64,000 nt of DNA from a virus (IMGVR_UViG_3300021959_007005); one strand, 5' to 3'. Positions 13,101 to 60,129 are shown, numbered from the stretch's first letter. A program made the numbers and translations. The notes: generated from the letters alone by a model not told the origin.

Positions 13101-13101
13101 T

Positions 13102-40216: not shown

Positions 40217-40243
40217 TTGACACTAATATGCATTGGTGCTATA
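40217..40243 (+). promoter_or_regulatory. Palindrome-spacer promoter, degenerate copy
   Basis: TTGACACTAATATGCATTGGTGCTATA. Confidence 0.65.
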
Positions 40244-40277
40244 CGTTACGTATCTTAAACACAAATGGAGAAATAAA

Positions 40278-40466
40278 ATGGACTTTAATACACTACAAAA
40301 CATCCAAGTCGAGGATGTCGACATGAAAGACTATCCAAAATTTTGTGATGCTTATATCGCGTCTGCTGAACATGCAGATGGAACAGAACTTACTGATGCT
40401 GAATTAGAGCTAGTAAACAGTGACTCTTCTTTCGTCTACCAAGAAATTCAAAATTTTATTTGGTAA
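40278..40466 (+). CDS. Early hypothetical protein
   Basis: GGAGA RBS; DYPKFCDAYI; start re-called. Confidence 0.6.
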   Translation: MDFNTLQNIQVEDVDMKDYPKFCDAYIASAEHADGTELTDAELELVNSDSSFVYQEIQNFIW

Positions 40467-40534
40467 AACGAAAAAAGTGTTTGACAATGGTTGCACCATT
40501 TGCTATAGATAGTGCAACCAACGGAGATGATGAA

Positions 40535-40714
40535 ATGACAAAGTTTAACATTATTTTAAACGGAACAACTACACTACCAACTGGTGAAGTTAAAACTTTT
40601 GTGAATGAAGTTGAAACTACAGAAGATTGTTATGGCAATGCAGCTGAGTTTGTTTGCCTTTATCAAGAGTTTTATCCAGAAATTGACTTTAAAATAGAAG
40701 AGGTAACTGTATAA
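40535..40714 (+). CDS. Early hypothetical protein
   Basis: Own TTGACA promoter at 40481; start re-called. Confidence 0.55.
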   Translation: MTKFNIILNGTTTLPTGEVKTFVNEVETTEDCYGNAAEFVCLYQEFYPEIDFKIEEVTV

Positions 40715-40802
40715 TGTTGGAAGCAATTAATAATTGGGCTATTAATACATTGAGTACTACAATGAGTTTAATTGTAGTGGCTGGTATATTGAGCATAATG
40801 TC

Positions 40803-41033
40803 ATGATATCAATTCCAGGGATTACACAGCAACAGAAAAAGTTGTTGGATATTATGTGGGATCTTGATAATCAAGAAGATTTATTAACTTGGTTTGACAC
40901 ACTTGATGACGATGAATTCCAACAAGCGGTTACACTTCATGAAATGATACTCATTGCAATGATGGAACACGATGATCGTGACAATTTAAACTTAGCACAA
41001 AAAATGTTAGCAGATATTGGAGTAGTATGTTGA
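40803..41033 (+). CDS. Hypothetical protein
   Basis: QQQKKLLDIMWDLD. Confidence 0.55.
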   Translation: MISIPGITQQQKKLLDIMWDLDNQEDLLTWFDTLDDDEFQQAVTLHEMILIAMMEHDDRDNLNLAQKMLADIGVVC

Positions 41034-41554
41034 GCCGTTTGAAACTTATACTTGGTATATTTGCATTATCTATTAATGTGATGATACTGATAACTGTAAC
41101 TGCAATAGTGTCACTTCAGTGGAATGAAGCACGAGCTGAACAACGATTAAAGCATGTTACTTCTGATGACGTATTTTGTTTACAACAAAATATTTATTTT
41201 GAAGCCCGTAATCAGAGTGTGTTGGGACAAGTTGCGGTTGCTTGGGTTACTCTCAATCGAATGACCGATACGTCTTACCCTAACAGTGTTTGTAAAGTAG
41301 TTTGGCAAAATAAGCAATTCAGCTGGACCCATGACGGTAAAAGCGATAAGCCAGGTAAAACTAAACTAGAGCAACGTGCTTGGGAAGATGCTGGGCTTGT
41401 GGCACAGATTGTACTTCTTGATTGGGCTCGAGCAAATAATAGTCCTATTTCAGAAGCTATTATGTATCACGCTAATTATGTTGATCCATATTGGACAGAT
41501 TCTTACGTTGAAGTAATCGTTATTGATGATCATATTTTTTATGAAAAAGGCTAA
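41027..41554 (+). CDS. SleB/Hydrolase_2 cell wall hydrolase with N-terminal TM
   Basis: CLQQNIYFEARNQ, VTLNR, KQFSW, YHANYV, DHIFY. Confidence 0.9.
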   Translation: MLSRLKLILGIFALSINVMILITVTAIVSLQWNEARAEQRLKHVTSDDVFCLQQNIYFEARNQSVLGQVAVAWVTLNRMTDTSYPNSVCKVVWQNKQFSWTHDGKSDKPGKTKLEQRAWEDAGLVAQIVLLDWARANNSPISEAIMYHANYVDPYWTDSYVEVIVIDDHIFYEKG

Positions 41555-41664
41555 CCTTTATTTTATTTACAAACTTATTATATAATAATCCATACTTTTG
41601 CTAGATTGCATTCTATGACTTCTTACTATATAACGTAAGAGTAACTTAACAAAAAGGAAAGACA

Positions 41665-41853
41665 ATGCAAATTAACCCATTATGGATTATGTTCGCAGTA
41701 GTATTTGGTGGTCTGGGTATTTGGCTTATTGCATTAGATGCACTAATGCCAGGTTTCTTAATGTGCTCCGGTGTATTAGGTTGGTTGTTTATAGCAAACA
41801 ACACAGGTCAACTATGGATCGAAGATGAAGACGAGGAGTATGAAGATGACTAA
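41665..41853 (+). CDS. Small 2-TM protein with acidic tail
   Basis: Hydropathy pattern. Confidence 0.5.
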   Translation: MQINPLWIMFAVVFGGLGIWLIALDALMPGFLMCSGVLGWLFIANNTGQLWIEDEDEEYEDD

Positions 41854-42064
41854 TGAAATTATTATCTTAATGGTTGCAATCCCGGTAGTAGTTGCTATTA
41901 TAGCAATGTGCATAGATGTAGGAGACAGGTAATGGAATATCTAACATATGAATTGTTGCAAAGAGTTGCAATAGGGTTTCTTGTAGGAGTAGGACTAGGA
42001 TGTATGATAATGCAAGTGTCCGCACTAGTGTGGATGTATTGGGATATGTTTAAGAGTAAACGCA

Positions 42065-42295
42065 ATGGATCTTAATATCGCACTATCTAACCTAGCAGAA
42101 ATTGTAGTTTTAATTGTTGGTTTTGGAGTATGTGGCATAGTTTTTGCACATATGATGTCACTAGCAGATGTATCAACCAGACATGAAGATGATTATGAAG
42201 ATGAAGATGATTATGAAGATGATGATCTGTTTGAAGACGACGAGTTTACTGAAATGGATCGAGAAGACGAAGCTGAACTACAACGTATAGCATAA
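42065..42295 (+). CDS. Small TM protein with very acidic tail
   Basis: TM then D/E repeats; terminator at about 42303-42329. Confidence 0.5.
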   Translation: MDLNIALSNLAEIVVLIVGFGVCGIVFAHMMSLADVSTRHEDDYEDEDDYEDDDLFEDDEFTEMDREDEAELQRIA

Positions 42296-42363
42296 AGTAA
42301 TCAAAGGCACATCACTTGTGCCTTTTTTATTGACAATAATTATCTTTATGTTACAATTTATAT

Positions 42364-43083: not shown

Positions 43084-43084
43084 T

Positions 43085-43666: not shown

Positions 43667-43672
43667 TAGTTG

Positions 43673-43699
43673 TTGACACCAAGACGTATTGGTGTTAGA
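43673..43699 (+). promoter_or_regulatory. Palindrome-spacer promoter
   Basis: TTGACACCAAGACGTATTGGTGTTAGA. Confidence 0.8.
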
Positions 43700-43738
43700 A
43701 CATGTATATAGAAACAACGTAACACGGAGAAGATCAAA

Positions 43739-44146
43739 ATGGCATATGTATCACAAGCGATGAAAAAAGAATTAGCACCAGGCATTAAAGCTGTACTGAA
43801 AAAGTACAAAACCAAAGCCAGCATTAGTGTTAATAATCACTCAACAATTTGTGTAAACATTAAGAGCGGTCCAATTGACTTTATTGGCGAAGCTAATAAA
43901 AAGAATATGGAGATCGCAGAACGCCGTGGAACACCATACTATGAAAATGATGGATACATTCAAGTCAATGATTGCTATCCTGAAACATACGGTGCCGCTA
44001 GTGACTTCCTAGTAGAGCTTGTAGCTGCTATGAAAGGTCCAAAGTACTTTAATAATGACGACACAATGACTGATTATTTTAGTCGTTCACATTACACTGA
44101 CATTAATGTTGGTAAGTGGAACAAGCCATACGAGTGTGTGGCTTAA
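43739..44146 (+). CDS. Early hypothetical protein
   Basis: MAYVSQAMKKELAPGIKAVLKKY...IN.GKWNKPY. Confidence 0.65.
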   Translation: MAYVSQAMKKELAPGIKAVLKKYKTKASISVNNHSTICVNIKSGPIDFIGEANKKNMEIAERRGTPYYENDGYIQVNDCYPETYGAASDFLVELVAAMKGPKYFNNDDTMTDYFSRSHYTDINVGKWNKPYECVA

Positions 44147-44159: not shown

Positions 44160-44375
44160 ATGAATCCCGAAGATAGAAAAGACTTTACAGTAGAAGAAAT
44201 ACAAAACAGACATGGTAAAACTAAATGGGCAGTAATGATAGCTAGTAAGTATACTCATAGTATCTGTCATACTTTAGATGATGCAAATAAAATGGCTAGT
44301 AACTTAAATCTAGATCCGTATCACTATGATCGTATAGTTAACAATCATCGTTCTAAGACTTATTATAATAGTTGA
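44160..44375 (+). CDS. Hypothetical protein
   Basis: AAGGA RBS. Confidence 0.5.
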   Translation: MNPEDRKDFTVEEIQNRHGKTKWAVMIASKYTHSICHTLDDANKMASNLNLDPYHYDRIVNNHRSKTYYNS

Positions 44376-44740: not shown

Positions 44741-44767
44741 TTGACGCCAAAACGTCTTGGTGCTATA
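44741..44767 (+). promoter_or_regulatory. Palindrome-spacer promoter
   Basis: TTGACGCCAAAACGTCTTGGTGCTATA. Confidence 0.8.
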
Positions 44768-44801
44768 AAGTGTGAGTAAGTTAAACAAATGAGGTACTAA
44801 A

Positions 44802-45143
44802 ATGCAAGAACAGATTCAAACATTGATCCAAAAAGCCAAAGCAGACTACACAAAATTTGCTACTGCTGGCGGACGTGGTGAACCAGAAGCAGGTAGCTAC
44901 TTTGCTAAAGAACTTGCTAACTTTGAAAATAGTTTTACTGTTAAAGAAGGCAGTAAGTATATCAAACTAATCCGAGGCGGAGGTGTTTGGGGCTTTATTG
45001 TTAACACAGACAACGATAAAAAGTTTGTTAAAGGTGATATCCTTAAAGCCGCAGGTTATAATGCTCCAGCTCGTAACGCTGCACGTGGCAATGTTTTTGG
45101 TGAATACAATGTAGCATGGACTGGCCCACATTATTTGAAATAA
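44802..45143 (+). CDS. Early conserved phage protein
   Basis: KYIKL...VWGFIV...GDILKAAGYNAPARN. Confidence 0.65.
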   Translation: MQEQIQTLIQKAKADYTKFATAGGRGEPEAGSYFAKELANFENSFTVKEGSKYIKLIRGGGVWGFIVNTDNDKKFVKGDILKAAGYNAPARNAARGNVFGEYNVAWTGPHYLK

Positions 45144-45251: not shown

Positions 45252-45278
45252 TTGACACCAATACGTATTGGTGTTAAA
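45252..45278 (+). promoter_or_regulatory. Palindrome-spacer promoter (perfect palindrome 45256-45273)
   Basis: TTGACACCAATACGTATTGGTGTTAAA. Confidence 0.8.
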
Positions 45279-45311
45279 ACATGTATATAAATTAAACAAA
45301 CGGAGTTGAAA

Positions 45312-45815
45312 ATGTCTGTAATTGATAAAGCATTTGCATTTGCCACCGCAGCACACGCCGCAGTTGGACAAAAAAGAAAGTATGATGGTGCACCTTACAT
45401 TGTTCATCCTCAGAGAGTTGCTGATATTGTTAGAACATATGGAGGCAGTGACGATCAGATTGCCGCCGCTTACCTACATGATGTTGTGGAGGATACACAA
45501 GTTGACATTGATACTATTCGTGACATGTTTGGCGATACTATCGCTGATTTGGTTTCAGACCTTACAGATGTGTCTTGTTCCTATGATGGCAATAGAGCAA
45601 CCAGAAAATCAATAGACATGGAGCACACACTCTGTGGCAGTGTTGATGCACAGTTTGTTAAACTGGCTGATATATTGGATAACAGTCAGGACATCAAAGA
45701 AAATGATCCTAGTTTTTGGAAAGTATACCAAAAGGAAATGCTTGCACTATTAGAAGGAATGACAGATTGTACTATGTTCCCTCTATATGCTAAAGCATTG
45801 GACAGTGTTAGTTAA
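45312..45815 (+). CDS. HD-domain hydrolase, RelA/SpoT hydrolase (SAH/Mesh1)-like
   Basis: AH..GQKRK...PYIVHP, AAYLHDVVEDT, VKLADILDN. Confidence 0.85.
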   Translation: MSVIDKAFAFATAAHAAVGQKRKYDGAPYIVHPQRVADIVRTYGGSDDQIAAAYLHDVVEDTQVDIDTIRDMFGDTIADLVSDLTDVSCSYDGNRATRKSIDMEHTLCGSVDAQFVKLADILDNSQDIKENDPSFWKVYQKEMLALLEGMTDCTMFPLYAKALDSVS

Positions 45816-45818: not shown

Positions 45819-46589
45819 TTAACTTGGTTTAATTCCAGATAATGTTTTGAGATCGTCAATTGAAGAATCATCAGAACCCATTCTTTTTCCTTGCGTAGCA
45901 CTAGTGTTTGCTGGAAATTTATCAGTGGGTTCTGATTTAGCTTTTTCTGCTTCAGCGGCCTTTAATTCAGATAATCTTGGAAGGTCTGCATATCCACCCT
46001 TTGCATTAATTTTTTTAACTTCATCATCTGATAGTACTCTATTAATCATCATGTTACCAGAAATAATCCAATTTCCTGTCATGTTATTATTTGTTTTAAA
46101 TCTATAATGTCCGCCCAATGGTATTTGGTCAGTAATAGCTTTACTTTTTGCACTGATTTGACCTTTAAACGGTCCACTTTTTAATACAGTACCTTTTGCA
46201 TCAGCTCTCGCCTGCCAATCAACTTCGTCACTCATTAATACTTCTGCCCATACTTGGTTATCTGGTCTGTAATCTGGCTCTGCTTGACCTTTGCCTTTAC
46301 TCTTACCACCAATATGTGTTGCCATTGGATAATCACCTGCATGCCAACCTGGACGATATGCTAAATCACCTAATTTAGATTTAACCATTCTTCCACCACT
46401 TTTATTATCTTTAGCACGTTCACCTTCTTCAGCAGTTTTCCATACACCCATTTCTACTGGTATATTTTTATTCACATATAATGGATATAATTTTCCACCT
46501 TTTGTATTGAATAATTTGTATGCTTTAATGGTTTTACCTTCAAATTCATTAATTTGGGTTTCCTTAAGGTACTCTTTTAAATTTTTCAT
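45819..46589 (-). CDS. Late protein of unknown function
   Basis: LAYRPGWHAG, PDNQVWAEV, YRFKTN; minus-strand TAAATA at 46610-46615; ends LKTLSGIKPS. Confidence 0.65.
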   Translation of the reverse strand: MKNLKEYLKETQINEFEGKTIKAYKLFNTKGGKLYPLYVNKNIPVEMGVWKTAEEGERAKDNKSGGRMVKSKLGDLAYRPGWHAGDYPMATHIGGKSKGKGQAEPDYRPDNQVWAEVLMSDEVDWQARADAKGTVLKSGPFKGQISAKSKAITDQIPLGGHYRFKTNNNMTGNWIISGNMMINRVLSDDEVKKINAKGGYADLPRLSELKAAEAEKAKSEPTDKFPANTSATQGKRMGSDDSSIDDLKTLSGIKPS

Positions 46590-46686
46590 GACGATATCCT
46601 TGTTATGTTTATTTATTCTTTTATTGACAACTATTATAAAATAGTATATTGATAGTTAGAGAGTTTAAATAAAAGAGGTGAGAATA

Positions 46687-48575: not shown

Positions 48576-48670
48576 TAACTTTTGCCACTAATATCCTCAG
48601 TTGACCCATGGAAAAGGTCACTACGGCAAGAAGAAAAAGTAATATAAACAAGAAGTCAACGACGAAGATA

Positions 48671-48696
48671 GCGAAGGATTAAACCTTCGCTTTTTT
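48671..48696 (+). terminator. Terminator immediately before a palindrome promoter
   Basis: GCGAAGG-ATTAAA-CCTTCGC-TTTTTT. Confidence 0.8.
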
Positions 48697-48697
48697 C

Positions 48698-48724
48698 TTG
48701 ACATCAATACGTCTTGGTGCTATT
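48698..48724 (+). promoter_or_regulatory. Palindrome-spacer promoter
   Basis: TTGACATCAATACGTCTTGGTGCTATT. Confidence 0.8.
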
Positions 48725-48757
48725 GTGAAGATAAGTTAAACAAAGCGAGGTGCCAAA

Positions 48758-48901
48758 ATGTATACAGTAGAATATGGATACTATAACTACCCAAAAAAGA
48801 TACGCACTTTCAAAACATATGAAAGCGCCAAAAAGTTTTTTTACTACATCGGAAAACAAAACGGTGTGAAAAAAGCAGAACTCACAGTACCAGGATCATA
48901 A
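48758..48901 (+). CDS. 47-aa early protein (not in ORF track)
   Basis: GAGG RBS; MYTVEYGYYNYPKKIRTFKTYESAKKFF. Confidence 0.6.
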   Translation: MYTVEYGYYNYPKKIRTFKTYESAKKFFYYIGKQNGVKKAELTVPGS

Positions 48902-48903
48902 TA

Positions 48904-49179: not shown

Positions 49180-49387
49180 TGAAATAATAGATGATGCCAT
49201 TGGTGTTATGTTGCTTGCTGTATTTGCTTTTGGGTGGATGGATACTCTTTGGATTTTTGGTGTGGAAAATAGTCAACAATACACTTGGTGGAATTTAATT
49301 CAGTATTTTGCCAATTAATACATTGACAAACTATTGTAATAGTAGTATAACGTATGAATAAAGTTAAGTAGATCAGGAGATAATAAA

Positions 49388-50468: not shown

Positions 50469-50469
50469 A

Positions 50470-50646: not shown

Positions 50647-50685
50647 TGTTAGATATATTATGAATTAGAAATAAAGGATGAAGAA

Positions 50686-51270: not shown

Positions 51271-51989
51271 TTATTTTCACCGTAAATATTCAGTATGTCT
51301 ATCACAGCGGGATGTCTTTCGACATCCCGTTTTGTAAAATGCACATGTCCTATAGACGCAGGAGAATGTGATCTATATCTTTCTAAAAAGTCTTTTAAAC
51401 CATTATTTGTAAATCCTCTATCATGTTGAGCAAGGTCACCTGTCACAACAACCTTTGATCCAACACCGATACGAGTTAATAACATTTTAGTTTGTTCTTG
51501 AGTTGCGTTTTGCATTTCGTCTGCAACAATCCAAGATTTTTTAAATGTTCGTCCTCGCATATATGCTAATGGGGAAATTTCAATGTCTTTGTTTTCTAAC
51601 ATTGCTGCTATCTGTTTGATAGTATAAAATTCCTCAAGGAAATCAAATATTGGTCGTGTCCAAGGCGCCATCTTGGCGTTTAAATCACCGGGTAAGAATC
51701 CATGTTGTTCGTCAACACTTACAGCGGGCCGTGTAACAACGATTTTGTCTACACTTCCTGCCTCCATTTGTTTAATTCCCATTTGGACAGCCATCATGGT
51801 TTTGCCTGTACCCGCAGGTCCAGTTGCAAAGCATATATGTTTATGGGTGTCTTCTAGGATATCAAGATATTCTTCTTGATTTAAATTACGAGGTAGGATT
51901 TGTAGTTTGGTTTTTTTAGAACGCTCTAGTTCTGATACCATATCGTTAAACGATCCTTTTTGTTTTGTTTGTCTTGCTCTTTTAGCCAT
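51267..51989 (-). CDS. phoH: PhoH-family ATPase
   Basis: GPAGTGKT, TRPAV, GFLPG, AYMRGRT, DEMQN, TGDLAQHD, RHP. Confidence 0.95.
   Translation of the reverse strand: MAKRARQTKQKGSFNDMVSELERSKKTKLQILPRNLNQEEYLDILEDTHKHICFATGPAGTGKTMMAVQMGIKQMEAGSVDKIVVTRPAVSVDEQHGFLPGDLNAKMAPWTRPIFDFLEEFYTIKQIAAMLENKDIEISPLAYMRGRTFKKSWIVADEMQNATQEQTKMLLTRIGVGSKVVVTGDLAQHDRGFTNNGLKDFLERYRSHSPASIGHVHFTKRDVERHPAVIDILNIYGENN
51308..51333 (+). terminator. Plus-strand terminator embedded in antisense phoH coding sequence
   Basis: CGGGATGTC-TTTC-GACATCCCG-TTTT. Confidence 0.6.
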
Positions 51990-52090
51990 TTGTAGAACTC
52001 CATTGTTGAGTTAGTCTTTGCCGAGTCCAATGTGTCCACACTATTACTTATTACCAAACTGCTAAATAACTGTATAAAAGAGATGTAAAA

Positions 52091-52636
52091 ATGCGTGAAA
52101 TTGAAGAATTAAAACAAACATTAGACCAACTAGTCGATTCTAGTAGCGATTTAAATATCCTATTAGAGTTTGAAGAAGTATTGGATAATCTAAACATATA
52201 TGCATATAAGAATTGGGAGTATGGAGAAGTACTTGCTGGTCCTGATATTAGTAAGTATTGGATTACTTGTTCATTGATGTGGCCTCGAAATCTTATGCCA
52301 GATCCAGATGGTGCATTACGATTAACTAAACACGGTGCAAGAGTATCTTTTAAGAAAGACACTCTTATTGAACCAATTAAGATTGTAACACAAGACGATT
52401 TAGAGATTGCGCCTGGCACAGACGGAAAAAGCAGAGCAAAAAAGAAAAACACTCCAATTTGGATAGTAAATGTTGAAATGCCACGACAGTTTGTTGATGA
52501 ATTTGAAAGCAGTAAGATTACTATTAACGGAACAGACATTGATTTAAGTGAAGTTGATGGAGCATATGATAGTGATCAAAATCTTGATTTAACACCAGAA
52601 AAATCAGATGTATTAGACAATATTGGAGAACAATAA
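52091..52636 (+). CDS. Conserved late hypothetical protein
   Basis: TAAATA at 52063; YAYKNW...MPDPDGALRL. Confidence 0.65.
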   Translation: MREIEELKQTLDQLVDSSSDLNILLEFEEVLDNLNIYAYKNWEYGEVLAGPDISKYWITCSLMWPRNLMPDPDGALRLTKHGARVSFKKDTLIEPIKIVTQDDLEIAPGTDGKSRAKKKNTPIWIVNVEMPRQFVDEFESSKITINGTDIDLSEVDGAYDSDQNLDLTPEKSDVLDNIGEQ

Positions 52637-53109
52637 TGAGTGTAAAATTTAATGAAATGGCAAACCTAGTTAATCCAACAATTAGTATTGATCAATATAA
52701 GCCTAAAATTGGCGAAGCTAGTGAAACAGTTGTAGTAGCATTTGAAGTTGACTCAGAACAACCAGCAAGTGATTTAGCAAATTTATTAGAAACTGATGTT
52801 GTTGAAATGTTAGATGTGGATGTTTCCCAAGGTCCAAATAAGGATGGCAAGCATCTTGTATTTGTTGAATTTGCTAGAGATAATAGATTACACAGTAATA
52901 TCTTAGATATTATGCATGCTGTATCGAGTGCAACTGGTATATCAGAATGGCAGTTTGATGGATACAAATCTGAAGCATCTTCACAATTAGATGAAGACAA
53001 TCTGTCTTCTTTGGTACTTGACAATCCGCAAGATTATGTGTTAAAGTATGCGGACAAGATGGAAGAATCTTCAGAATTATTAAGGCTAAAAACCTTATCT
53101 GGAATTTAA
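52636..53109 (+). CDS. Hypothetical protein ending LKTLSGI
   Basis: ISIDQYKPKIG. Confidence 0.6.
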   Translation: MSVKFNEMANLVNPTISIDQYKPKIGEASETVVVAFEVDSEQPASDLANLLETDVVEMLDVDVSQGPNKDGKHLVFVEFARDNRLHSNILDIMHAVSSATGISEWQFDGYKSEASSQLDEDNLSSLVLDNPQDYVLKYADKMEESSELLRLKTLSGI

Positions 53110-53125
53110 AAATCGAGGTATAATA

Positions 53126-53587
53126 ATGGGAGCAAAATTAGCAGGTGTTATGTTTATAATACTGATTGCCGCAAGTGGTGTCGGTTACTGGTACTATAAT
53201 GACACCCAGCAACGTATTGCAATCTTAAATGAAAATAATGCTAAACTAAACGTAGCAATAAATTTAAATGAAGAAACTATAACTTCTTTGGAATCAGATT
53301 ACAGAAGAGTTAATGAAGAACTAACAACTATTAATCAACAATTTGCTAATGTTCGGAAACAAAATAATAGATTAAATGAAAAACTTGCAACGATTGATCT
53401 TGGACTAGCGGCAGTTAATAATCCCGATGGGATTGGCAGAGCAGTCAATAGAGGTACAGAAAATGCAGGAAGATGTTTCGAATTATTAAGTGGTGCTGAT
53501 TTAAATGAAAAGGAAAAGGGAGCCACCAATGGCATACAATTTAACAAAGAGTGTCCTTGGCTTTGGCCTGGTAATGACACTCCTTAG
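53126..53587 (+). CDS. Putative i-spanin (Rz-like)
   Basis: N-terminal TM, periplasmic coiled coil, C-terminal Cys. Confidence 0.55.
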   Translation: MGAKLAGVMFIILIAASGVGYWYYNDTQQRIAILNENNAKLNVAINLNEETITSLESDYRRVNEELTTINQQFANVRKQNNRLNEKLATIDLGLAAVNNPDGIGRAVNRGTENAGRCFELLSGADLNEKEKGATNGIQFNKECPWLWPGNDTP

Positions 53588-53918
53588 TGGGTGCAGTAGT
53601 TTACCAAGCACCTTAAATGTATCAACAAAACCAGTTACAAAGCCAATATTGGTATTGCCTGATGTTGACGAAGTATCAATGCGCCGCATTGAATGGATTG
53701 TTATTAATGAAGAAAATGTAGATGATGAGTTAGCTAAACTTAAAGAAAAAAACATTCCAACTGGTTTGTATGCATTAACTGGTCAAGGTTATGAAAATTT
53801 AGGTCTGAACTTTAGTGACATACGTGCTCTAGTACAACAACAGCAAGCAATTATTGTAGCATATAAAAATTATTATATTGAAGCAGAAGAAACTCTAGAC
53901 AACTCAGTAGCAAAGTAA
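53529..53918 (+). CDS. Putative o-spanin lipoprotein (Rz1-like)
   Basis: Lipobox LSGC; overlaps 3' end of previous gene; start re-called. Confidence 0.55.
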   Translation: MAYNLTKSVLGFGLVMTLLSGCSSLPSTLNVSTKPVTKPILVLPDVDEVSMRRIEWIVINEENVDDELAKLKEKNIPTGLYALTGQGYENLGLNFSDIRALVQQQQAIIVAYKNYYIEAEETLDNSVAK

Positions 53919-54769
53919 TGTCAACAAAACCATATAAAAATTCAGATCCATATGATCTATTAGGTGTTGACAAAACTGCTACTGATAGTGATATTAAAAG
54001 TGCGTATAGAAAATTAGCAAAAAAATGGCATCCTGATACTCCTAATGGAGATGCTAAAAAGTTTAATGAAGTAAATACTGCATATGAATCAATTAAAGAT
54101 GTCGATGCTAGGTTCCAACAAGAACAACAACAGCATACATCTAACCCACATAACTGGCAACATAAAGCAGAGTCTAATCCATTCAATAATCACAACACTC
54201 CTCCTGGATTTGATAGTATGTTTGATAGTATGTTTGGAAGACAGCAAAAATACCACCAACGTAATCAGGATGTAGAAATAACTGCACATGTAACATTAGA
54301 AGAAGTATTAAACGAATCTCAAAAAAACTTAAATATAAATCTTATGAATGGTAATTTTAGAACTGTTACTATACACATTCCACGTGGTGTACATGAAGGA
54401 TCTAAGATAAGATACAATAGTATGGGTGATGATTCCGTTCCTGGACCACCTGGTAATTTAATCGTAACTTATCGATTAAAAAAACATAATAGGTTTTGGA
54501 CAGATGGTTACAATTTAAATGAAAAAATTAATATAAGTTTAAAAACTGCATTATTTGGTGGTGACATCCCTATTAGCGGAATAGACGGAAGTCAATTTAA
54601 ATTAAATATAAAGGCGGGTACTAGCCCAAATACAAAACTTAGAATACCACAACATGGGTTACCACAACCCAATCAACCAAATGGTGATTTAATATTACAT
54701 ATTGATGTTTCTATACCACCATTAACAGTCGACAATTTAAATACCCCAATTGGGGAATTATTAGAATAA
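53918..54769 (+). CDS. dnaJ: DnaJ/CbpA-type co-chaperone (no zinc finger)
   Basis: PYDLLGV, AYRKLAKKWHPD, C-terminal DnaJ domain, GDLIL. Confidence 0.9.
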   Translation: MSTKPYKNSDPYDLLGVDKTATDSDIKSAYRKLAKKWHPDTPNGDAKKFNEVNTAYESIKDVDARFQQEQQQHTSNPHNWQHKAESNPFNNHNTPPGFDSMFDSMFGRQQKYHQRNQDVEITAHVTLEEVLNESQKNLNINLMNGNFRTVTIHIPRGVHEGSKIRYNSMGDDSVPGPPGNLIVTYRLKKHNRFWTDGYNLNEKINISLKTALFGGDIPISGIDGSQFKLNIKAGTSPNTKLRIPQHGLPQPNQPNGDLILHIDVSIPPLTVDNLNTPIGELLE

Positions 54770-54788
54770 AGTAATAGGAGTAAGTTTA

Positions 54789-57032
54789 TTGTCTAATGAA
54801 GATAAGATTGAAAAAATCGTAAACAAGACATTTATGTTGAGTAAAGATTACCGTCACCACTATGTAACTATTGAGCATTTACTAGCTATTATTCTTGATT
54901 TAGATGAAGTGAAGGATATTGTTTCTGATTTTAGTGTAGATCCATCTGATATAAGCAGAGAAGTATACGATCATTTAGCAGATTCAGTTGATAGTTATCC
55001 AGATGCTACAGAACAAGAACCCAAAAAGACTGTCATGTTGGAGCGAGTATTCCATAGAGCATTTACGCAAGCATTGTTCAATGGCCGTAATAACTTAGAC
55101 CCCAGAGATTTACTGATTAGTATTTTATCAGAGCAACAAACGCCAAGTGCTTTTATTTTACAAAAATACGGTATTGACAGAGATGCAGTTAGTAACTATC
55201 TTCAGGATATTAATCGTATTCGAGAGCAAAATATTAATCAAGATTCATCACCAACAATTACAAAAGCTGACAAGATATTACGTAAATTTTGTGAAAATTT
55301 AAATGAATCAGCAGCTAGTGGTAAAATAGATGCTATTGTTGGTAGAGAAGAAGAATTAGCCGAAACAGTACAGACCCTTGCTCGTCGTAAAAAGAATAAT
55401 GTTGTACTTGTTGGTGATAGTGGTGTTGGCAAAACTGCCATTGCCGAAGGACTTGCTTATTTAATCAATGAAGGAAGTGTTCCTGATCTAATACAAGGAC
55501 ATATTGTTTATAGTTTAGATTTAAGTGCTTTATTAGCTGGTACTAAATTTAGAGGAGACTTTGAAGACCGACTTAAAGAAGTACTAGATGTATTAGAAAA
55601 AAGAGACGATGCTATTTTGTTTATTGATGAAATACATATGATTATGGGAGCAGGCAATAGTGGATCCGGTGCAATGGATGTTGCTAATATGTTAAAGCCA
55701 GCACTACAAAAAGGAAAGTTGCGTTGTCTTGGTAGTACAACCTATGATGAATACCGCCAACATTTTGAAAAAGATAAGGCACTTGTACGTAGATTTCACA
55801 AAGTAGACGTACCTGAGCCAAGTGTGGCAGATGCAAAGCGTATAATTAATAACAGCATATATCCATATGAAGCACACCACGAGATTGCATTTACTAAGAA
55901 CGCACTTGATGGTGCAGTAGACTTAACTGCACAATATTGGCATAATAAATTTCTTCCAGATAAAGCATTTGATGTAATTGATAGTGCGGCGGCTCGTCAA
56001 CGGTTACTTCCCAAAGACGATCGTAAGAGTATTATTGACTTAGATGAAATTAGATTTGAGGTTGCTAAACTAACAAGGATACCAATTGACCAATTAGTAT
56101 TAACCAAAGATAGTGAGTACAAAAAAGAAAAGCCTGTAGATATTGAAAAGCAATTAAATCTTAAAGTGTTTGGCCAATCAGAAGCTATCACTAAGTTAGC
56201 TGATAGTATTTACATTGCGAAAGCAGGTCTTAAAGCAGAAGATAAACCAATTGGTAGTTACTTGTTTAGTGGACCAACGGGTGTTGGTAAAACAGAAACA
56301 GCAAAGCAGCTCAGTAATACCATGGGAATGGAATTATTACGTTTTGATATGAGTGAATATCAAGAAAGACATACAGTATCAAAACTTATCGGCAGTCCTC
56401 CAGGCTACGTTGGATTTAGTGAAGGCGGTTCAGGTAGTGGTCTGTTAATTAATAAACTAGAAGAAAATCCAAATAGTATTTTACTATTAGATGAGATTGA
56501 AAAGGCTCATCCAGACGTTAGTAACGTATTGTTACAACTAATGGATAATGGAATGGTTACATCAAGTGACGGCAAAACAGTCAGTGCTAGAAATTGTATT
56601 ATTATACTTACAAGTAATTTAGGTGCTGCTGATAGCGAAAAGAACTTAATTGGCTTTGGTGCTGGAAAAAATGAGTCAGCAGCAGGTGAGGCAGTTAAAA
56701 GTTTCTTTAGTCCAGAGTTTAGAAATAGACTTGATGCAATTGTGCAATTTAAAAAATTAGACAGAACATTGATGAAAAATGTTACAGTTAAGTTTATTAC
56801 TGAACTAGAAGCAATGTTAACTCCACGGGAGATTGTACTATTATATGATGATAAAGTAATTGAATGGCTAACTGACAATGGATTCAGTGAAACAATGGGC
56901 GCAAGGCCGATGGCACGTGTCATTAATCAACAAATCAAAAAACCGCTTGCTAAAGAATTATTATTTGGTAGTGACATTAAAACAGTAACACTGGAAATAT
57001 TAGATGGCAGTATTAACATTACAACAAATTAA
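54789..57032 (+). CDS. clpA: ClpA-type AAA+ unfoldase
   Basis: Clp N-domain, GDSGVGKT, FIDEIH, GPTGVGKT, RFDMSEYQE, LLDEIEKAH, GARP. Confidence 0.92.
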   Translation: MSNEDKIEKIVNKTFMLSKDYRHHYVTIEHLLAIILDLDEVKDIVSDFSVDPSDISREVYDHLADSVDSYPDATEQEPKKTVMLERVFHRAFTQALFNGRNNLDPRDLLISILSEQQTPSAFILQKYGIDRDAVSNYLQDINRIREQNINQDSSPTITKADKILRKFCENLNESAASGKIDAIVGREEELAETVQTLARRKKNNVVLVGDSGVGKTAIAEGLAYLINEGSVPDLIQGHIVYSLDLSALLAGTKFRGDFEDRLKEVLDVLEKRDDAILFIDEIHMIMGAGNSGSGAMDVANMLKPALQKGKLRCLGSTTYDEYRQHFEKDKALVRRFHKVDVPEPSVADAKRIINNSIYPYEAHHEIAFTKNALDGAVDLTAQYWHNKFLPDKAFDVIDSAAARQRLLPKDDRKSIIDLDEIRFEVAKLTRIPIDQLVLTKDSEYKKEKPVDIEKQLNLKVFGQSEAITKLADSIYIAKAGLKAEDKPIGSYLFSGPTGVGKTETAKQLSNTMGMELLRFDMSEYQERHTVSKLIGSPPGYVGFSEGGSGSGLLINKLEENPNSILLLDEIEKAHPDVSNVLLQLMDNGMVTSSDGKTVSARNCIIILTSNLGAADSEKNLIGFGAGKNESAAGEAVKSFFSPEFRNRLDAIVQFKKLDRTLMKNVTVKFITELEAMLTPREIVLLYDDKVIEWLTDNGFSETMGARPMARVINQQIKKPLAKELLFGSDIKTVTLEILDGSINITTN

Positions 57033-57681
57033 AAATTTACCAGAATTTACCTATGCTACTGGAATATATTATAAAAAGTTTCCTTGGCGTATTCAGTTTT
57101 GGCAACCAGAGTTCTTTAGACGTGGATTTTATAAAGATCTAGAGCATGAGAATGCATGGAGAACTTGTATGATACGTAATATGGACATCAACTCACTTTT
57201 AAAAAATCAATTAGGATATGAACGTTGGAAGGTTAGGCGAGACAGAAAGTTTTTTGTATATCTGACTGAACATAATTTAATATCTAAATTAGTAGATCGT
57301 TGGGGTGAAGATATATTGCAAATACAAGGGCCTATTAACCAAAAACATCAAGAGCTTATGATTGATAATTTAGACTTGGTAACAAAAAAAGAACTTTGGT
57401 ATAATAAATTTAGATATAAGGTTAGCTTTACTAGACATGGTAGACAACCACTCGACATACTGTCTGAAATTTTTGAGTTTGTTGATGAAACATTTGACGC
57501 AAATAATTATCAGATGAATCATATTATGAAGCGGTCTATTAGGCACAAGACAATGCACGATCCTTATACTAACACTGGTACTATATTTTTAAAAGAATAT
57601 GATGATGTTGCCACATTGCATCTGATGTTTAAGAAACACATAACATCAACCAAAAAATGTGTTCTAATAAATGAACTGTAA
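57004..57681 (+). CDS. Hypothetical protein
   Basis: 225-aa ORF overlapping clpA end. Confidence 0.6.
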   Translation: MAVLTLQQIKNLPEFTYATGIYYKKFPWRIQFWQPEFFRRGFYKDLEHENAWRTCMIRNMDINSLLKNQLGYERWKVRRDRKFFVYLTEHNLISKLVDRWGEDILQIQGPINQKHQELMIDNLDLVTKKELWYNKFRYKVSFTRHGRQPLDILSEIFEFVDETFDANNYQMNHIMKRSIRHKTMHDPYTNTGTIFLKEYDDVATLHLMFKKHITSTKKCVLINEL

Positions 57682-57712
57682 TAAATACATGTAACTAATA
57701 GGATATTGTGCT

Positions 57713-57883
57713 ATGGCAAAGATGAATGAAGATATGGTCGTTATTAAAGTAAGCGAACTAATTCGAGACGATCAATCAGCATCAGAGATACTTAACGGAG
57801 AAATAATCTCCACTATAGAAGAAGCAGTACAAGCTCTAGTCGGCGCTGGTAAATTAGTGGAGATTATTAAAGATGAAAGCTAA
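57713..57883 (+). CDS. 56-aa late protein (not in ORF track)
   Basis: TAAATA at 57682; VVIKVSELIRDD. Confidence 0.6.
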   Translation: MAKMNEDMVVIKVSELIRDDQSASEILNGEIISTIEEAVQALVGAGKLVEIIKDES

Positions 57884-58199
57884 AGAATTTACAATTAACG
57901 TACCAATTAATATTAAGATTAATGGTGACGGCGATCCTGAAATTGATATGGGACAAAATGATGATGGTTATGAAAAGTCTGATGGACTTGACCCAGATCC
58001 ATTAATGGTTCCACCATTACAGCAAAACTTAGAACTTAAAAAAGCTGCATTAGGTAAAGATAGTGAAGCAATTGATAAAATTACATCTGATGATATCCCA
58101 TCAGATGAACAAGAACAAATTGATAATGACAGTATGGATAATTTTCGCAAGGCGTTGGGTTTAGTACAGGATGGTGGCAACGGCGCAGAGGTGGAATAA
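57873..58199 (+). CDS. Acidic hypothetical protein
   Basis: MVPPLQQNLELKK. Confidence 0.6.
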   Translation: MKAKEFTINVPINIKINGDGDPEIDMGQNDDGYEKSDGLDPDPLMVPPLQQNLELKKAALGKDSEAIDKITSDDIPSDEQEQIDNDSMDNFRKALGLVQDGGNGAEVE

Positions 58200-58865
58200 A
58201 TGTCTGTTCAAAAATTAGTTACTAGTCTTAATAAAAAACTTGATGGTCCTGATTATGTAGGCGAAAAGAATAGACTATTTTTTGATCTTGCAACTAGATC
58301 ATTTAGACTCAGTGACGGCGTGACACCAGGCGGTATAGTATTACAAGGCGGTGGTGGCGGAGGCGGTGGTGGTTTAACTGGTATTACTGATTTTGCAACT
58401 AGCAGTGTTGTTGAGCTTACTGATACTCAAATAACAATTACAGGTGCTGCACTATTAGAATCTGACGAGACTATTGATCCTGTTACAAAATATGAATATG
58501 TGTTATACGGCACAACAGTTAATAACACAGTATCAGAACTTTATAGAGATTCACTCAATAATAAAATTATCTTAGATAATAATACAACTTATTTTTATGA
58601 AATTGATGTAATAGGCAGAGGTAATGCAGGAACTAATCATGCCGCCATACAATTTACTGGTGCAATCAATGTTGACAATTATGGTAGTATGAGTAAAATT
58701 AATGAACAAAAAACTACTATTTCATCTGGACCAGGATTTGATTTAGATGCTATAATCGGCCTAACCTCTAATGATACTTCACTAAATGTTTCAGGCAGTG
58801 GAAGAGCTTCAAGTACTATTAGATGGACGGCACTTGTAAAATTAATTGAAGTTAAACAGATTTAA
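58200..58865 (+). CDS. Virion fibre/structural protein, Mtd-N-like N-terminus with poly-Gly hinge
   Basis: GEKNRLFFD...LSDGVTPGG, GGGGGGGGG. Confidence 0.6.
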   Translation: MSVQKLVTSLNKKLDGPDYVGEKNRLFFDLATRSFRLSDGVTPGGIVLQGGGGGGGGGLTGITDFATSSVVELTDTQITITGAALLESDETIDPVTKYEYVLYGTTVNNTVSELYRDSLNNKIILDNNTTYFYEIDVIGRGNAGTNHAAIQFTGAINVDNYGSMSKINEQKTTISSGPGFDLDAIIGLTSNDTSLNVSGSGRASSTIRWTALVKLIEVKQI

Positions 58866-58935
58866 ACACATAAAATAGATAAATAAATATATAGGTACAC
58901 AATATAGTGTAATGAATTTTTAGAGGAGACCAGAA

Positions 58936-59190
58936 ATGGCTTTAACAACAAACGCAGCAACCAAAGCAGGCAACGGCTTAGGTTCAGTAACACAAATCGT
59001 TTCAGCAGCACCATCAGATCAAGCGGCATTAGATGCATTTGAAAAAGCAGTAGGCGCAGCAGGACACACAATTGCAGGCGTCGACGGCGCACACGGCGGA
59101 ACAATGCACTTTGCAATCCAAGGTGGCGGTGCAGTAGCTAACCCAACAGGCGCAGAAGCAACAGCAATTGTTGCAACATTTGAAGACTAA
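58936..59190 (+). CDS. Small Ala/Gly-rich late (likely virion) protein
   Basis: TAAATA, GAGGAG RBS, own terminator at about 59211-59238. Confidence 0.65.
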   Translation: MALTTNAATKAGNGLGSVTQIVSAAPSDQAALDAFEKAVGAAGHTIAGVDGAHGGTMHFAIQGGGAVANPTGAEATAIVATFED

Positions 59191-59274
59191 GTTTTAGTAA
59201 TACTAAAATAAAAGCAGTGTTTCGGCACTGCTTTTTTTATGACTAAATACAGGTAGAGTATATAGGAGATTAAA

Positions 59275-59622
59275 ATGGTAGCAAGAGCAACAAACAATTT
59301 AAATGCATTTAGCCACACAAATGGAATTGCCGAAGATGTAGAAATGTTTACAATTGATGGTGGTGCAACACTGGCAAATGAAACTAATCCAGGCGAAGCT
59401 ATGGACGCAATTACAAGATGTATTGAAGAATTTTCAAATATTATTGCAGTAGGAGTAGAAGATACTGCTGGTGCATTTCGTATTATGTTACATGGTGGTA
59501 AATGGAAAGCGGCGACATTACAGGACGCACTAAGGGTATTAGGACCAACAGCAAACGGACTAAACGTTGGATCAAATAATTATGACTTATCAGGTGCAAC
59601 AGTAGTCGATTTTGAATTCTAA
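59275..59622 (+). CDS. Late (likely virion) protein
   Basis: TAAATA at 59244, AGGAG RBS, terminator at about 59646-59672. Confidence 0.65.
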   Translation: MVARATNNLNAFSHTNGIAEDVEMFTIDGGATLANETNPGEAMDAITRCIEEFSNIIAVGVEDTAGAFRIMLHGGKWKAATLQDALRVLGPTANGLNVGSNNYDLSGATVVDFEF

Positions 59623-59693
59623 ATTATAAAGAATATCCCCAGAAGAAGGCGCATTTCGATGCGTCTTTTTTTATGATTTCTTACAATTAAGTG

Positions 59694-59720
59694 TTGACAC
59701 CAAGACGTATTGGTGCTATA
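59694..59720 (+). promoter_or_regulatory. Palindrome-spacer promoter
   Basis: TTGACACCAAGACGTATTGGTGCTATA. Confidence 0.8.
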
Positions 59721-59761
59721 TGTAGTACATAGAAAACAACATAACAAAGAAGGAAGACAAA

Positions 59762-60106
59762 ATGCAAACTCAGTTAAGCACAGCAGAAACCGGATTTGGA
59801 ATTTGGAACCGTTACGTTAATAAGTCAGGCTCTAATAAATCAATACGTTTTAGCTTTGAGCGTGAAACTCAAAACGGTGAGTGGGCATATGATCTTCCAA
59901 TTTGGAATATCAAATATACAGAAGATGGCTTTCATTATACTACAGTTGGTTGTGTTACAGCGTTTCCAGGAGATGGTGTACAAGCTACTATAAGAGGTTA
60001 TGATACGGTCAAAGGTGTAGATCCGTTTACAGTGTTTGAAGATGCAGTTGAAGCCGCCGCAGATTTTGATTTAGAAGAGTTTTATAGAGCAAAAGAAAGT
60101 GATTGA
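59762..60106 (+). CDS. Early hypothetical protein
   Basis: Stop codon lies inside the next TTGACA. Confidence 0.6.
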   Translation: MQTQLSTAETGFGIWNRYVNKSGSNKSIRFSFERETQNGEWAYDLPIWNIKYTEDGFHYTTVGCVTAFPGDGVQATIRGYDTVKGVDPFTVFEDAVEAAADFDLEEFYRAKESD

Positions 60107-60129
60107 CACCAAGACGTCTTGGTGCTATG
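60103..60129 (+). promoter_or_regulatory. Palindrome-spacer promoter (perfect palindrome 60107-60124)
   Basis: TTGACACCAAGACGTCTTGGTGCTATG. Confidence 0.8.

What the first reader, a model, noticed from the sequence alone, without database searches (positions are those of the whole stretch)
40217..60129. Seven sigma70 promoters share an 18-bp palindrome filling the -35/-10 spacer: an operator regulon or mobile promoter cassette
Seen: TTGAC is fused to CACCAA(G/T)ACGT(A/C)TTGGTG and then (C/T)TA at 40221 (degenerate), 43677, 44745, 45256 (perfect), 48702, 59698 and 60107 (perfect). Most are followed by an A-rich AAACAA tract, an RBS and a small unknown gene; one drives the (p)ppGpp-hydrolase-like gene. 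Two sit right after terminators and one overlaps the upstream stop codon. Established: T4-type phages shuffle early genes via repeated promoter/stem-loop cassettes. Inference: a dimeric regulator (phage repressor or host factor) switches an early host-takeover gene set, and the repeats may also seed recombination.
Basis: partly seen in the sequence, partly recalled or inferred. Interest (0 to 1): 0.72.

Follow-up and report, generated by a model that had tools for sequence, protein, structure and literature searches.

The report
Portable early promoters with conserved palindrome
Seven near-identical host-type promoters, each with the same 18-base palindrome between its two recognition boxes, head small-gene units in an uncultured marine giant phage; they match a cassette type already described in T4-like phages, and whether a protein reads the palindrome is still untested.

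Summary
Seven copies of CACCAA-K-ACGT-M-TTGGTG lie at the stated coordinates, all on the + strand, against 0.01 expected by chance. Each copy runs from the CA of a TTGACA -35 box to the TG of an extended -10, across a 17-bp spacer. A 25-32 nt leader, a ribosome-binding site and a small gene follow.

The same 22-mer occurs in 34 IMG/VR loci of related marine phages of about 360 kb. It occurs in none of 185,579 cellular species genomes, and never outside a promoter.

A relative 96-98.5% identical to the window has four copies where the window has two, with the extra small genes bounded by cassette copies. One cassette gene is about 90% identical in contigs whose flanks are unrelated. At one orthologous position the spacer alternates between three discrete types.

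This is the PeSL architecture of T4-like phages (Arbiol 2010, Comeau 2014), which includes stem-loops between -35 and -10. So it is a new member of a known kind.

The operator reading remains open. The palindrome is sequence-specific, its core AAGACGTCTT is the most conserved part, and other promoters show no excess of dyads. But no regulator and no host counterpart was found.

This scan has noted similar palindrome-bearing early promoters in other phages, but not this motif.

The parts
40217..40245 (+). Cassette 1, with a degenerate palindrome (CACTAATATGCATTGGTG). It comprises TTGACA, a 17-bp spacer, TGc and TATACG. It sits in the divergent gap between the - strand block (which ends at 40135) and the + strand block, and heads an operon of about 2 kb that runs to the terminator at 42303-42325.
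   Evidence: RNA contigs of two studies begin at 40272 and 40275, inside the predicted leader; this is only a weak hint.
43673..43701 (+). Cassette 2: TTGACA, CCAAGACGTATTGGTGT, TAGAAC. It drives genes 43739-44146 and 44160-44375.
   Evidence: The gene is about 90-95% identical in many contigs whose flanks are unrelated. An RNA contig spanning 42379-43843 reads through this site.
44741..44769 (+). Cassette 3: TTGACG, CCAAAACGTCTTGGTGC, TATAAA, with A-tracts upstream. It drives the single gene 44802-45143 (113 aa, pI 9.5, weak DUF7717 match).
45252..45280 (+). Cassette 4, with a perfect palindrome; the dyad extends to 26 bp with one mismatched pair. It drives the stand-alone HD_4 (RelA/SpoT-type hydrolase-like) gene 45312-45815.
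48698..48726 (+). Cassette 5: CATCAATACGTCTTGGTG, 6 nt after the terminator at 48670-48691. It heads about 2.5 kb of small genes, the first being a 47-aa basic protein at 48758-48901.
59694..59722 (+). Cassette 6, 21 nt after the terminator at 59649-59672. It drives gene 59762-60106. The near-identical relative G003 has an extra cassette plus a 68-aa gene inserted here.
60103..60131 (+). Cassette 7, with a perfect palindrome (core AGACGTCT). Its -35 box overlaps the stop codon of the upstream gene. It drives 60164-60493 and three more genes. G003 has two extra genes and one extra cassette immediately upstream.
48670..48691 (+). Intrinsic terminator hairpin with a T-run, directly before cassette 5. 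This terminator-then-promoter layout is common in the IMG/VR relatives.
59649..59672 (+). Terminator-like hairpin with a T-run before cassette 6.

Best explanation
The seven sites are PeSL-type early promoter cassettes of an uncultured marine jumbo phage of about 360 kb, distant kin of PA5oct and Atu_ph07.

Each cassette is a compact portable expression unit:
- often A-rich DNA or a terminator upstream;
- a consensus TTGACA;
- a 17-bp spacer;
- a TGn extended -10 and a TAnnnn box;
- a 25-32 nt leader with (G)TATAAGTTAAACAAA and a Shine-Dalgarno sequence;
- then a small accessory gene.

The host sigma70 RNA polymerase presumably reads them as soon as the DNA enters the cell (inferred). Because the copies share about 30-57 bp, they also act as patches of homology. 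Through these patches small genes are inserted, deleted and exchanged, and the spacer itself is swapped by short conversion tracts (shown by comparison).

The palindrome has core AAGACGTCTT and arms CACC/GGTG. It is one of at least three discrete, conserved spacer 'flavours'. It is most likely the binding site of a two-fold symmetric protein specific to this phage lineage. A protein bound between -35 and -10 would block RNA polymerase and so switch this subset of promoters off together (inferred; the factor is unknown).

Sub-claims: host-type promoter cassette about 0.85; recombination role about 0.75; protein operator about 0.45.
For: Promoter anatomy:
- The anatomy and its repetition are seen.
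- In relatives the -10 is mostly TATAAT, TATAGT or TATATT, and many copies directly follow a terminator.

Only in this phage lineage:
- The 22-mer is in 34 IMG/VR loci and in 0 of the genome contigs.
- The bare 18-mer gives only 17 scattered, mostly coding, chance hits in 596 Gb.
- In family DNA it occurs in promoters, apart from one coding occurrence that looks like chance.
- A relative that is 86% complete and 300 kb long has none.

Recombination:
- G003 versus the window shows cassette-bounded indels, with flanking copies 95% identical over 57 nt.
- Homology breakpoints lie at the -35 box or at the start codon.
- Spacer types A and C alternate at one orthologous position, in both the 9x% and the 63% identity groups.

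Sequence-specific rather than generic:
- Among 32 copies less than 80% identical over 135 bp, spacer positions carry 1.3-2.0 bits, against 0.2-1.1 bits for -10 positions 3-6 and under 0.8 bits for the flanks (the sample was selected by the motif).
- The other TTGAC..TGnTA promoters show no excess of dyads: 3.43 against 3.30 in shuffles.
- The core stays constant while the arms vary.
- Three window copies have weakened stems that are not compensated.

Literature:
- PeSLs with the stem-loop between -35 and -10, AT-rich DNA upstream, a hyperplastic location, recombination and lineage-specific stem sequences are all published (PMC2839356; PMC4122927).
Against: - No regulator was found. Pfam and PHROGs found no DNA-binding domain above threshold among 30 early-region proteins of the window or 10 first genes of relatives' cassettes. 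There were no HTH_3, RHH_1 or MetJ hits in about 515 kb of relatives.
- The timing of expression and the transcription start sites are unknown. Five of the seven window copies lack the -7 T.
- Discrete conserved spacer types could also be kept by gene conversion or by cassette transfer between co-infecting phages, without any binding factor.
- The same phage carries at least two flavours, which on the operator reading would need at least two factors.
- Covariation of the arms is only weakly above the controls. It does not separate a dimeric-protein site from a hairpin.
- The conservation figures come from loci that were found with the motif itself.
Confidence: 0.5

Rival explanations
1. The palindrome works as a nucleic-acid hairpin, as proposed for PeSL stem-loops. 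In read-through RNA it would attenuate or terminate upstream transcription or protect 3' ends. In supercoiled DNA it would extrude and modulate the promoter.
For: - The PeSL papers assign a terminator/attenuator role to stem-loops in this very position.
- The perfect copies fold at -9.7 to -12.1 kcal/mol as RNA, with z-scores of -1.7 to -3.1.
- There is some double-sided change. The variant CACCGAGATATATCGGTG keeps the dyad through four symmetric substitutions. Four pairs show changes on both sides, and 87.3% of cells are paired against 84.4% in shuffles.
- Upstream transcripts do cross site 2.
Against: - No U-tract follows the stem.
- Many cassettes already have a canonical terminator just upstream.
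- Three of the seven window copies fold no better than shuffles (z of -0.6 to -1.0) and are not compensated.
- In orthologous promoters the arms change without compensation while the core sequence is kept.
- Other promoters of the family show no excess of dyads.
- An RNA contig runs through site 2.
Confidence: 0.2
2. The palindrome has no function of its own. The cassette is a successful strong promoter-leader unit that spreads by duplication, gene conversion and transfer between co-infecting phages. The symmetry grew from the built-in partial dyad of TTGACA...TGnTAA through quasi-palindrome correction.
For: - TTGA-CA and TG-nTA are already partly self-complementary, and the T23 variants extend the dyad to 26 bp.
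- Short conversion tracts exactly covering spacer plus -10 are seen.
- Cassettes are demonstrably mobile.
- The motif is absent from a fairly close relative, so it is dispensable for the phage group.
Against: - The spacer is GC-rich (9 of 17) in a genome of 35% GC.
- It is identical upstream of orthologs whose proteins are only 63% identical, while the leader and the -10 differ.
- It is better conserved than the -10 hexamer.
- Variants stay with their downstream gene across contigs rather than being homogenised within a genome.
Confidence: 0.2
3. A host regulator reads the site. The obvious candidate by sequence is a MetJ-like ribbon-helix-helix repressor, because the core AGACGTCT equals the E. 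coli met-box consensus (own knowledge). This would tie early phage transcription, or titration of the repressor, to the SAM supply of a phage that carries many radical-SAM enzymes.
For: - The core is AGACGTCT in site 60107 and matches in 6-7 of 8 positions in the others.
- In type-B cassettes a second AGACGTCT lies exactly 24 bp (3 x 8) upstream in six loci.
- T4-like cyanophages appear to use a host regulator site in their early promoters (notes only).
Against: - MetJ needs at least two adjacent 8-bp boxes, and the flanking octamers match only 2-4 of 8 (sequence).
- The 18-mer is not enriched in any cellular genome.
- The core is not enriched in the window outside promoters.
Confidence: 0.06
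4. The palindrome is the target of a recombination or nicking enzyme, an integron-like system that actively moves promoter-gene cassettes.
For: - Cassette-bounded indels and swaps are seen.
- The PeSL authors themselves raise a stem-loop-binding recombination protein.
Against: - Junctions are spread over the cassette (at the -35 edge, in the leader, at the start codon) rather than at one point in the palindrome.
- 49-57 bp of identity is enough for T4-type homologous recombination.
- No integrase or nuclease was seen next to the cassettes.
Confidence: 0.04

Closest known systems
PeSL (promoter-early stem-loop) cassettes of T4-like phages RB49/phi1, T4/PST and KVP40/nt-1 (Arbiol et al. 2010, PMC2839356; Comeau et al. 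2014, PMC4122927)
   Same: - Near-consensus sigma70 promoter with a 17-bp spacer.
- AT-rich DNA upstream.
- An inverted repeat placed between -35 and -10, one of the two commonest published subclasses.
- An SD and a small ORFan downstream.
- Clustering in hyperplastic regions.
- Indels and replacements between close relatives at the cassettes.
- A stem sequence specific to the lineage.
   Different: - The host phage is a marine jumbo phage of about 360 kb, outside the classical T4-like genera.
- The stem is a mixed-sequence 18-bp palindrome (CACCAAGACGTCTTGGTG), not a G-run/C-run.
- It is not followed by a U-tract and often sits behind a separate terminator, so a terminator role is doubtful.
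- The spacer comes in discrete interchangeable types.
- Mini-circles and promoter activity are untested here.
Early-gene regulatory element of T4-like cyanophages
   Same: Marine T4-related phages in which many small early genes each carry the same two-fold symmetric site at a fixed distance from the -10 box.
   Different: According to those notes, the cyanophage promoters lack a -35 box and the site looks like a host activator site (GntR/PlmA type). Here a consensus TTGACA is present and the dyad lies inside the spacer, which suggests repression. The sequences were not compared.
Dispersed repressor operators in phage genomes (P1 C1 operators, mycobacteriophage L5 gp71 sites, phiC31 conserved inverted repeats; own knowledge)
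   Same: One short conserved site is repeated at many promoters across a phage genome and is read by one phage protein.
   Different: Those systems have an identified repressor and belong to temperate phages. Here no repressor is known and nothing indicates lysogeny.
AGTACT-bearing early promoter cassettes of PBECO4/121Q-type jumbo coliphages
   Same: Jumbo-phage early promoter cassettes with a palindrome in the -35/-10 spacer and no known reader.
   Different: That palindrome is a 6-mer enriched genome-wide. Here the 18-mer and its core occur only inside promoters.

Membership tests
PeSL cassette | sigma70-like promoter: TTGACA-like -35, a spacer of about 17 bp, TATAAT-like -10 | tested here: met
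   TTGACA or TTGACG, a 17-bp spacer, then TGn and TAnnnn in all 7 copies. Relatives mostly have TATAAT, TATAGT or TATATT. Five of the seven window copies lack the final T.
PeSL cassette | Stem-loop-forming inverted repeat within or next to the promoter (between -35 and -10 in one of the two commonest subclasses) | tested here: met
   The 18-bp palindrome spans the spacer. It folds at -9.7 to -12.1 kcal/mol as RNA in the intact copies.
PeSL cassette | AT-rich region upstream of -35; SD and start codon of a small gene at the 3' end | tested here: met
   A-tracts lie upstream in several copies, and an SD plus ATG lies 31-39 nt after the -10 in all 7.
PeSL cassette | Located in hyperplastic regions rich in ORFans | tested here: met
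   All copies lie at 40.2-60.1 kb, among small genes that mostly lack a Pfam or PHROG function. There are none in the first 40 kb. The first genes of relatives' cassettes are also unannotated.
PeSL cassette | Insertions, deletions or replacements between closely related genomes occur at the cassettes | tested here: met
   There are two events between the window and G003, which is 96-98.5% identical. Homology breakpoints lie at the cassette edges. Spacer types are swapped at one position.
PeSL cassette | The stem-loop acts as a transcription terminator or attenuator | tested here: inconclusive
   There is no U-tract after the stem, and separate terminators lie upstream of two copies. An RNA contig crosses site 2, but contigs cannot measure termination.
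PeSL cassette | Recombination between cassettes yields mini-circles; promoter activity shown in vivo | not testable with these tools
   This needs inverse PCR or long reads from infected cells, and reporter fusions.
Repressor-operator regulon | Two-fold symmetric site repeated at several promoters and overlapping the RNA polymerase footprint | tested here: met
Repressor-operator regulon | A cognate DNA-binding protein is encoded by the phage or the host | tested here: inconclusive
   No DNA-binding domain was found in the window's early region or in relatives. Only about a sixth of this genome and fragments of relatives could be searched.
MetJ met-box operator | At least two tandem 8-bp boxes close to AGACGTCT | tested here: not met
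   There is one central box (8 of 8 in site 60107, 6-7 of 8 elsewhere). The neighbouring octamers TGACACCA and TGGTGCTA match 4 and 2 of 8. The 24-bp spacing of two cores in type-B cassettes is suggestive only.

The most novel reading that the evidence does not exclude
The spacer 'flavours' would be operators of unrecognised small DNA-binding proteins. The flavours are A: CACCAAGACGTnTTGGTG; B: TAAGACGTCTTAC plus a second AGACGTCT 24 bp upstream; C: TTGGTCTAGAAC. On this reading a marine jumbo-phage lineage runs several separately switchable early regulons, and re-assigns genes between them by swapping 25-bp promoter cores.
Probability: 0.3. Interest if true: 0.6.

Novelty: new member of a known kind. 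Interest (0 to 1): 0.4.

Why it matters
It extends the PeSL mechanism of gene shuffling from cultured T4-like coliphages and vibriophages to an abundant uncultured lineage of marine giant phages, with direct comparative examples.

It also gives a sharply defined 18-bp site, a defined set of about 10-20 promoters per genome and three interchangeable spacer types. With these, the old open question raised by the PeSL authors, whether a protein reads the stem-loop, could be tested using synthetic oligos and cell-free expressed phage proteins, even without a cultured host.

The promoter itself is a compact, strong-looking, portable expression unit.

Tried and rejected
- Megablast of 6 kb against GenBank phages found no match. 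No whole genome is held for the window.
- A literature search for the motif letters returned only chance hits in unrelated papers. Doron 2016 is not held.
- A viral-contig scan that left the spacer free (TTGAC-N16-TGNTA...TAAGTTAA) was too general.
- Generic 'dyad in every spacer' idea: rejected.
- Genome-wide enrichment of the core (GACGTC, AGACGT and so on) in the window: none.
- Host operator: 0 and 17 chance hits in genome contigs.
- Regulator hunt: Pfam and PHROGs on 40 proteins; HTH_3, RHH_1 and MetJ in five relatives; and Atlas look-ups of the two most basic small proteins gave nothing usable.
- The 47-aa first gene of cassette 5 folds confidently (pLDDT 88.6) as a beta-beta-alpha-beta unit, but has no significant PDB match.
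- Metatranscriptome contigs of four runs cover the region. Contigs cannot give starts, strand or level. The starts at 40272 and 40275 in two studies are only a weak hint, no DNA run was laid beside them, and uncovered parts mean nothing.
- One pattern search used a wrong spacing and was repeated.

Full report
**1. The observation**

A search for CACCAAKACGTMTTGGTG with up to 3 mismatches finds exactly seven sites. All are on the + strand, at 40221, 43677, 44745, 45256, 48702, 59698 and 60107. The shuffle expectation is 0.01. A repeat finder that knows nothing of the motif returns the same seven as one family (D3).

The real unit is TTGA-CACCAA-N-ACGT-N-TTGGTG-YTA.

Read as a promoter, this gives:
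- TTGACA as the -35 box;
- a 17-bp spacer, CCAAnACGTnTTGGTGy;
- a TG at the extended -10 position;
- then TAnnnn.

The palindrome therefore runs from the last two bases of the -35 box to the TG. The start codon follows the -10 box by 31-39 nt, after a shared leader (G)TATAAGTTAAACAAA and a Shine-Dalgarno sequence.

The side claims hold:
- Terminators lie at 48670-48691 and 59649-59672.
- The stop codon of 59762-60106 lies inside the TTGACA of site 7.
- An HD_4 domain gene lies behind site 4.

One caveat applies. Only two of the seven window copies end their -10 box in T.

**2. What carries it**

The window encodes:
- a gp44-like clamp loader;
- an ATP-dependent DNA ligase;
- ClpB- and DnaJ-like chaperones;
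- PEP carboxykinase;
- an IMPDH/GMP-reductase-like enzyme;
- a 2OG-Fe(II) oxygenase.

The nearest named phages are PA5oct, Atu_ph07 and other jumbo phages, at 42-55% protein identity. Related IMG/VR contigs are rated 20-41% complete at 74-151 kb, which implies a genome of about 360 kb. Marine and estuary metagenomes and metatranscriptomes hold the stretch.

All seven sites lie in the + strand block at 40.2-60.1 kb, among small genes that mostly have no family. The first 40 kb has other TTGACA...TGnTA promoters but no copy of the palindrome.

**3. Relatives**

The exact 22-mer TTGACACCAAnACGTnTTGGTG occurs in 34 IMG/VR loci. There the -10 box is mostly TATAAT, TATAGT or TATATT. Many copies sit directly behind a terminator hairpin. 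The downstream genes are diverse small ORFs without Pfam families.

The same 22-mer is absent from one genome of each of 185,579 prokaryote species. The bare 18-mer gives 17 scattered hits that look like chance, most of them apparently coding.

A scan for the 16-bp core without promoter context shows that, in family DNA, the palindrome sits inside a promoter in all but one case. That case is a coding occurrence in one conserved gene that looks like chance. The remaining hits are in unrelated contigs of other base composition.

Copies are sparse and clustered: 1-6 per 74-151 kb contig. A 300-kb relative that is 86% complete, and whose ortholog of gene 43739-44146 is 86% identical, has none.

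**4. Mobility**

Contig G003 is 98.5% identical to window 48667-59741 and 93-97% identical beyond that. It has four cassettes where the window has two. There are two differences:
- One extra 68-aa gene is flanked by two cassette copies that are 95% identical over 57 nt, with 49 identical bases in a row. The window has a single copy there. This is the picture expected of homologous exchange between repeats.
- A second difference of 520 bp adds two genes and one cassette. It ends exactly at cassette 7.

Gene 43739-44146 is 89-95% identical at the DNA level in 17 other loci whose flanks do not match the window. The homology starts either 6 bp before the -35 box or at the start codon.

**5. An unbiased look at one promoter position**

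Eighty loci with relatives of that gene were fetched by protein, so they were not selected for the motif. Their upstream regions fall into discrete spacer types:

| Type | Spacer | Seen in |
|---|---|---|
| A | CACCAAGACGTATTGGTG | window, L254; L232 has ACAT at the centre |
| A' | CACTAAGACGTCTTGGTA | L235 |
| B | CA-nn-A(A/T)GACGTCTTACTG, plus a second AGACGTCT exactly 24 bp upstream | six loci |
| B' | AGTAAGACGTTTTACTT | L248 |
| C | TCTTGGTCTAGAACTG | L233, L237, L240, L255 |

Orthologs at 53% identity or less have none of these. One distant relative has a GGGGG...CCCCC hairpin around its -35 box, as in RB49.

Types A and C both occur with the same upstream and downstream genes, in both the 9x% and the 63% identity groups. 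Only the roughly 25 bp from the -35 box to the -10 box differ. So the promoter core is exchanged as a module.

Across types A and B the 10-bp core AAGACGTCTT is the constant part. The arms vary, and only partly in a compensating way.

**6. Structure or sequence?**

As RNA, the intact copies fold at -9.7 to -12.1 kcal/mol. Sites 40221, 44745 and 48702 fold no better than shuffles, and their arm changes are not compensated.

On 21 distinct variants, 87.3% of cells pair, against 84.4% in shuffles. Four of the nine pairs show a change on both sides. This is only weakly above the controls. The variant CACCGAGATATATCGGTG keeps the dyad through four symmetric changes.

Other promoters of the family are not enriched for dyads: the mean best stem is 3.43 bp against 3.30 bp in shuffles. 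The core words are not enriched in the window outside the promoters.

Among 32 copies that are less than 80% identical over 135 bp:
- spacer positions carry 1.3-2.0 bits, apart from the variable twelfth base of the palindrome at 0.7 bits;
- -10 positions 3-6 carry 0.2-1.1 bits;
- the flanks carry less than 0.8 bits.

This sample was chosen by the motif, so the figures are biased upwards.

Together this points to a specific sequence rather than to 'any hairpin'. It does not tell a dimeric protein site from a conserved hairpin with certainty.

**7. Who reads it?**

Nothing was found:
- No DNA-binding family scored above threshold among 30 proteins of the early region or among 10 first genes of relatives' cassettes.
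- No HTH_3, RHH_1 or MetJ match appeared in about 515 kb of relatives.
- The two most basic small proteins gave no lead.
- The 47-aa one folds well but matches no solved DNA-binding fold.

The core AGACGTCT equals the MetJ met-box consensus (own knowledge), but the defining tandem arrangement is not met.

**8. Expression**

Metatranscriptome contigs of several studies cover the region at 99% identity or more. Two begin at 40272 and 40275, inside the predicted leader of site 1. One runs through site 2. This is weak evidence, and timing cannot be read from it.

**9. Comparison with what is known**

Arbiol et al. 2010 describe PeSLs in RB49/phi1: near-consensus sigma70 early promoters with AT-rich DNA upstream and a stem-loop. 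[quoted passage not shown] PeSLs cluster in hyperplastic regions, and recombination between them inserts and deletes ORFans. The authors speculate that a DNA-binding protein may read the stem-loop.

Comeau et al. 2014 extend this to T4/PST and KVP40/nt-1, with lineage-specific stem sequences.

Every sequence-level feature of that definition is met here. The terminator function is doubtful, and mini-circles are untestable. The finding is therefore a new member of a known kind in an uncultured marine jumbo-phage lineage.

Two points may be new:
- the discrete, interchangeable spacer types;
- a well-defined mixed-sequence palindrome that occurs only in promoters.

**10. Verdict**

- Observation: confirmed.
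- Interpretation: partly supported. The cassette and recombination part is supported; the operator part is open.
- Best explanation: PeSL-type early promoter cassettes whose spacer dyad is probably, at about 45%, a site for a lineage-specific protein.
- Interest: moderate.

Noticed in passing
window 46624-46652: The promoter-like site in the divergent gap before the DNA ligase gene has a different perfect palindrome in its spacer: TTGACA, then ACTATT-ATAA-AATAGT, then TATTGA. RNA contigs of three runs all end at 46593, 4 nt beyond the start codon of the - strand gene 45819-46589.
   Followed up: no
window 40481-40508: A second promoter-like site lies at the start of ORF 40460-40714. It carries AATGGT-TGC-ACCATT, a TGGT-N3-ACCA palindrome of the kind bound by GntR-family regulators (own knowledge).
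   Followed up: no
L002, L019, L034, L233, L237, L240, L255 (relatives): A second conserved promoter flavour, TTGACATCTTGGTCTAGAACTGCTAGA, recurs at several loci. It shares TCTTGGT with the right arm of the main palindrome. It occurs in the same phages as type A, and at the same orthologous position.
   Followed up: partly
L230, L234, L236, L246, L249, L256 (relatives): In type-B cassettes an A-run/AGACGTCT/T-run palindrome lies just upstream of the -35 box, exactly 24 bp centre to centre from the AGACGTCT-like core in the spacer.
   Followed up: partly
window 43739-44146: This gene of 135 aa (phrog_10415, unknown function) has about 98 relatives in IMG/VR at 35-96% identity. It is about 90% identical in DNA in contigs with unrelated flanks, so it is a very mobile early gene.
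   Followed up: partly
window 12805-13314: ARAGORN calls a permuted (two-piece) tmRNA with tag ANANRAPEMALAA. It is already treated elsewhere in this scan. Its promoter combines TTGACA...TGTTATAAATA, a host-type and a T4-late-type box in one.
   Followed up: no
window 58588-59652: The two small Gly/Ala-rich genes 58936-59190 and 59275-59622 have by far the highest contig depth in three metatranscriptome runs (68-131, against 3-50 elsewhere). The contigs end at the terminator before cassette 6.
   Followed up: no
window 41665-41853 and 42065-42295: Two small predicted membrane proteins have extremely acidic D/E-rich tails. The DNA encoding them holds short tandem repeats (ATGAAGATGA...).
   Followed up: no
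window 29870-31063, 6133-7266, 53918-57032: This phage carries unusual auxiliary genes: PEP carboxykinase (PF01293, E = 4e-93), an IMPDH/GMP-reductase-like enzyme, and an adjacent DnaJ plus ClpB-type chaperone pair.
   Followed up: no
L259 (distant relative, ortholog 53% identical): Here the -35 box sits in the loop of a GGGGG...CCCCC hairpin followed by a T-run. This is the RB49-type PeSL form, at the same gene position where the window has the CACCAA palindrome.
   Followed up: no
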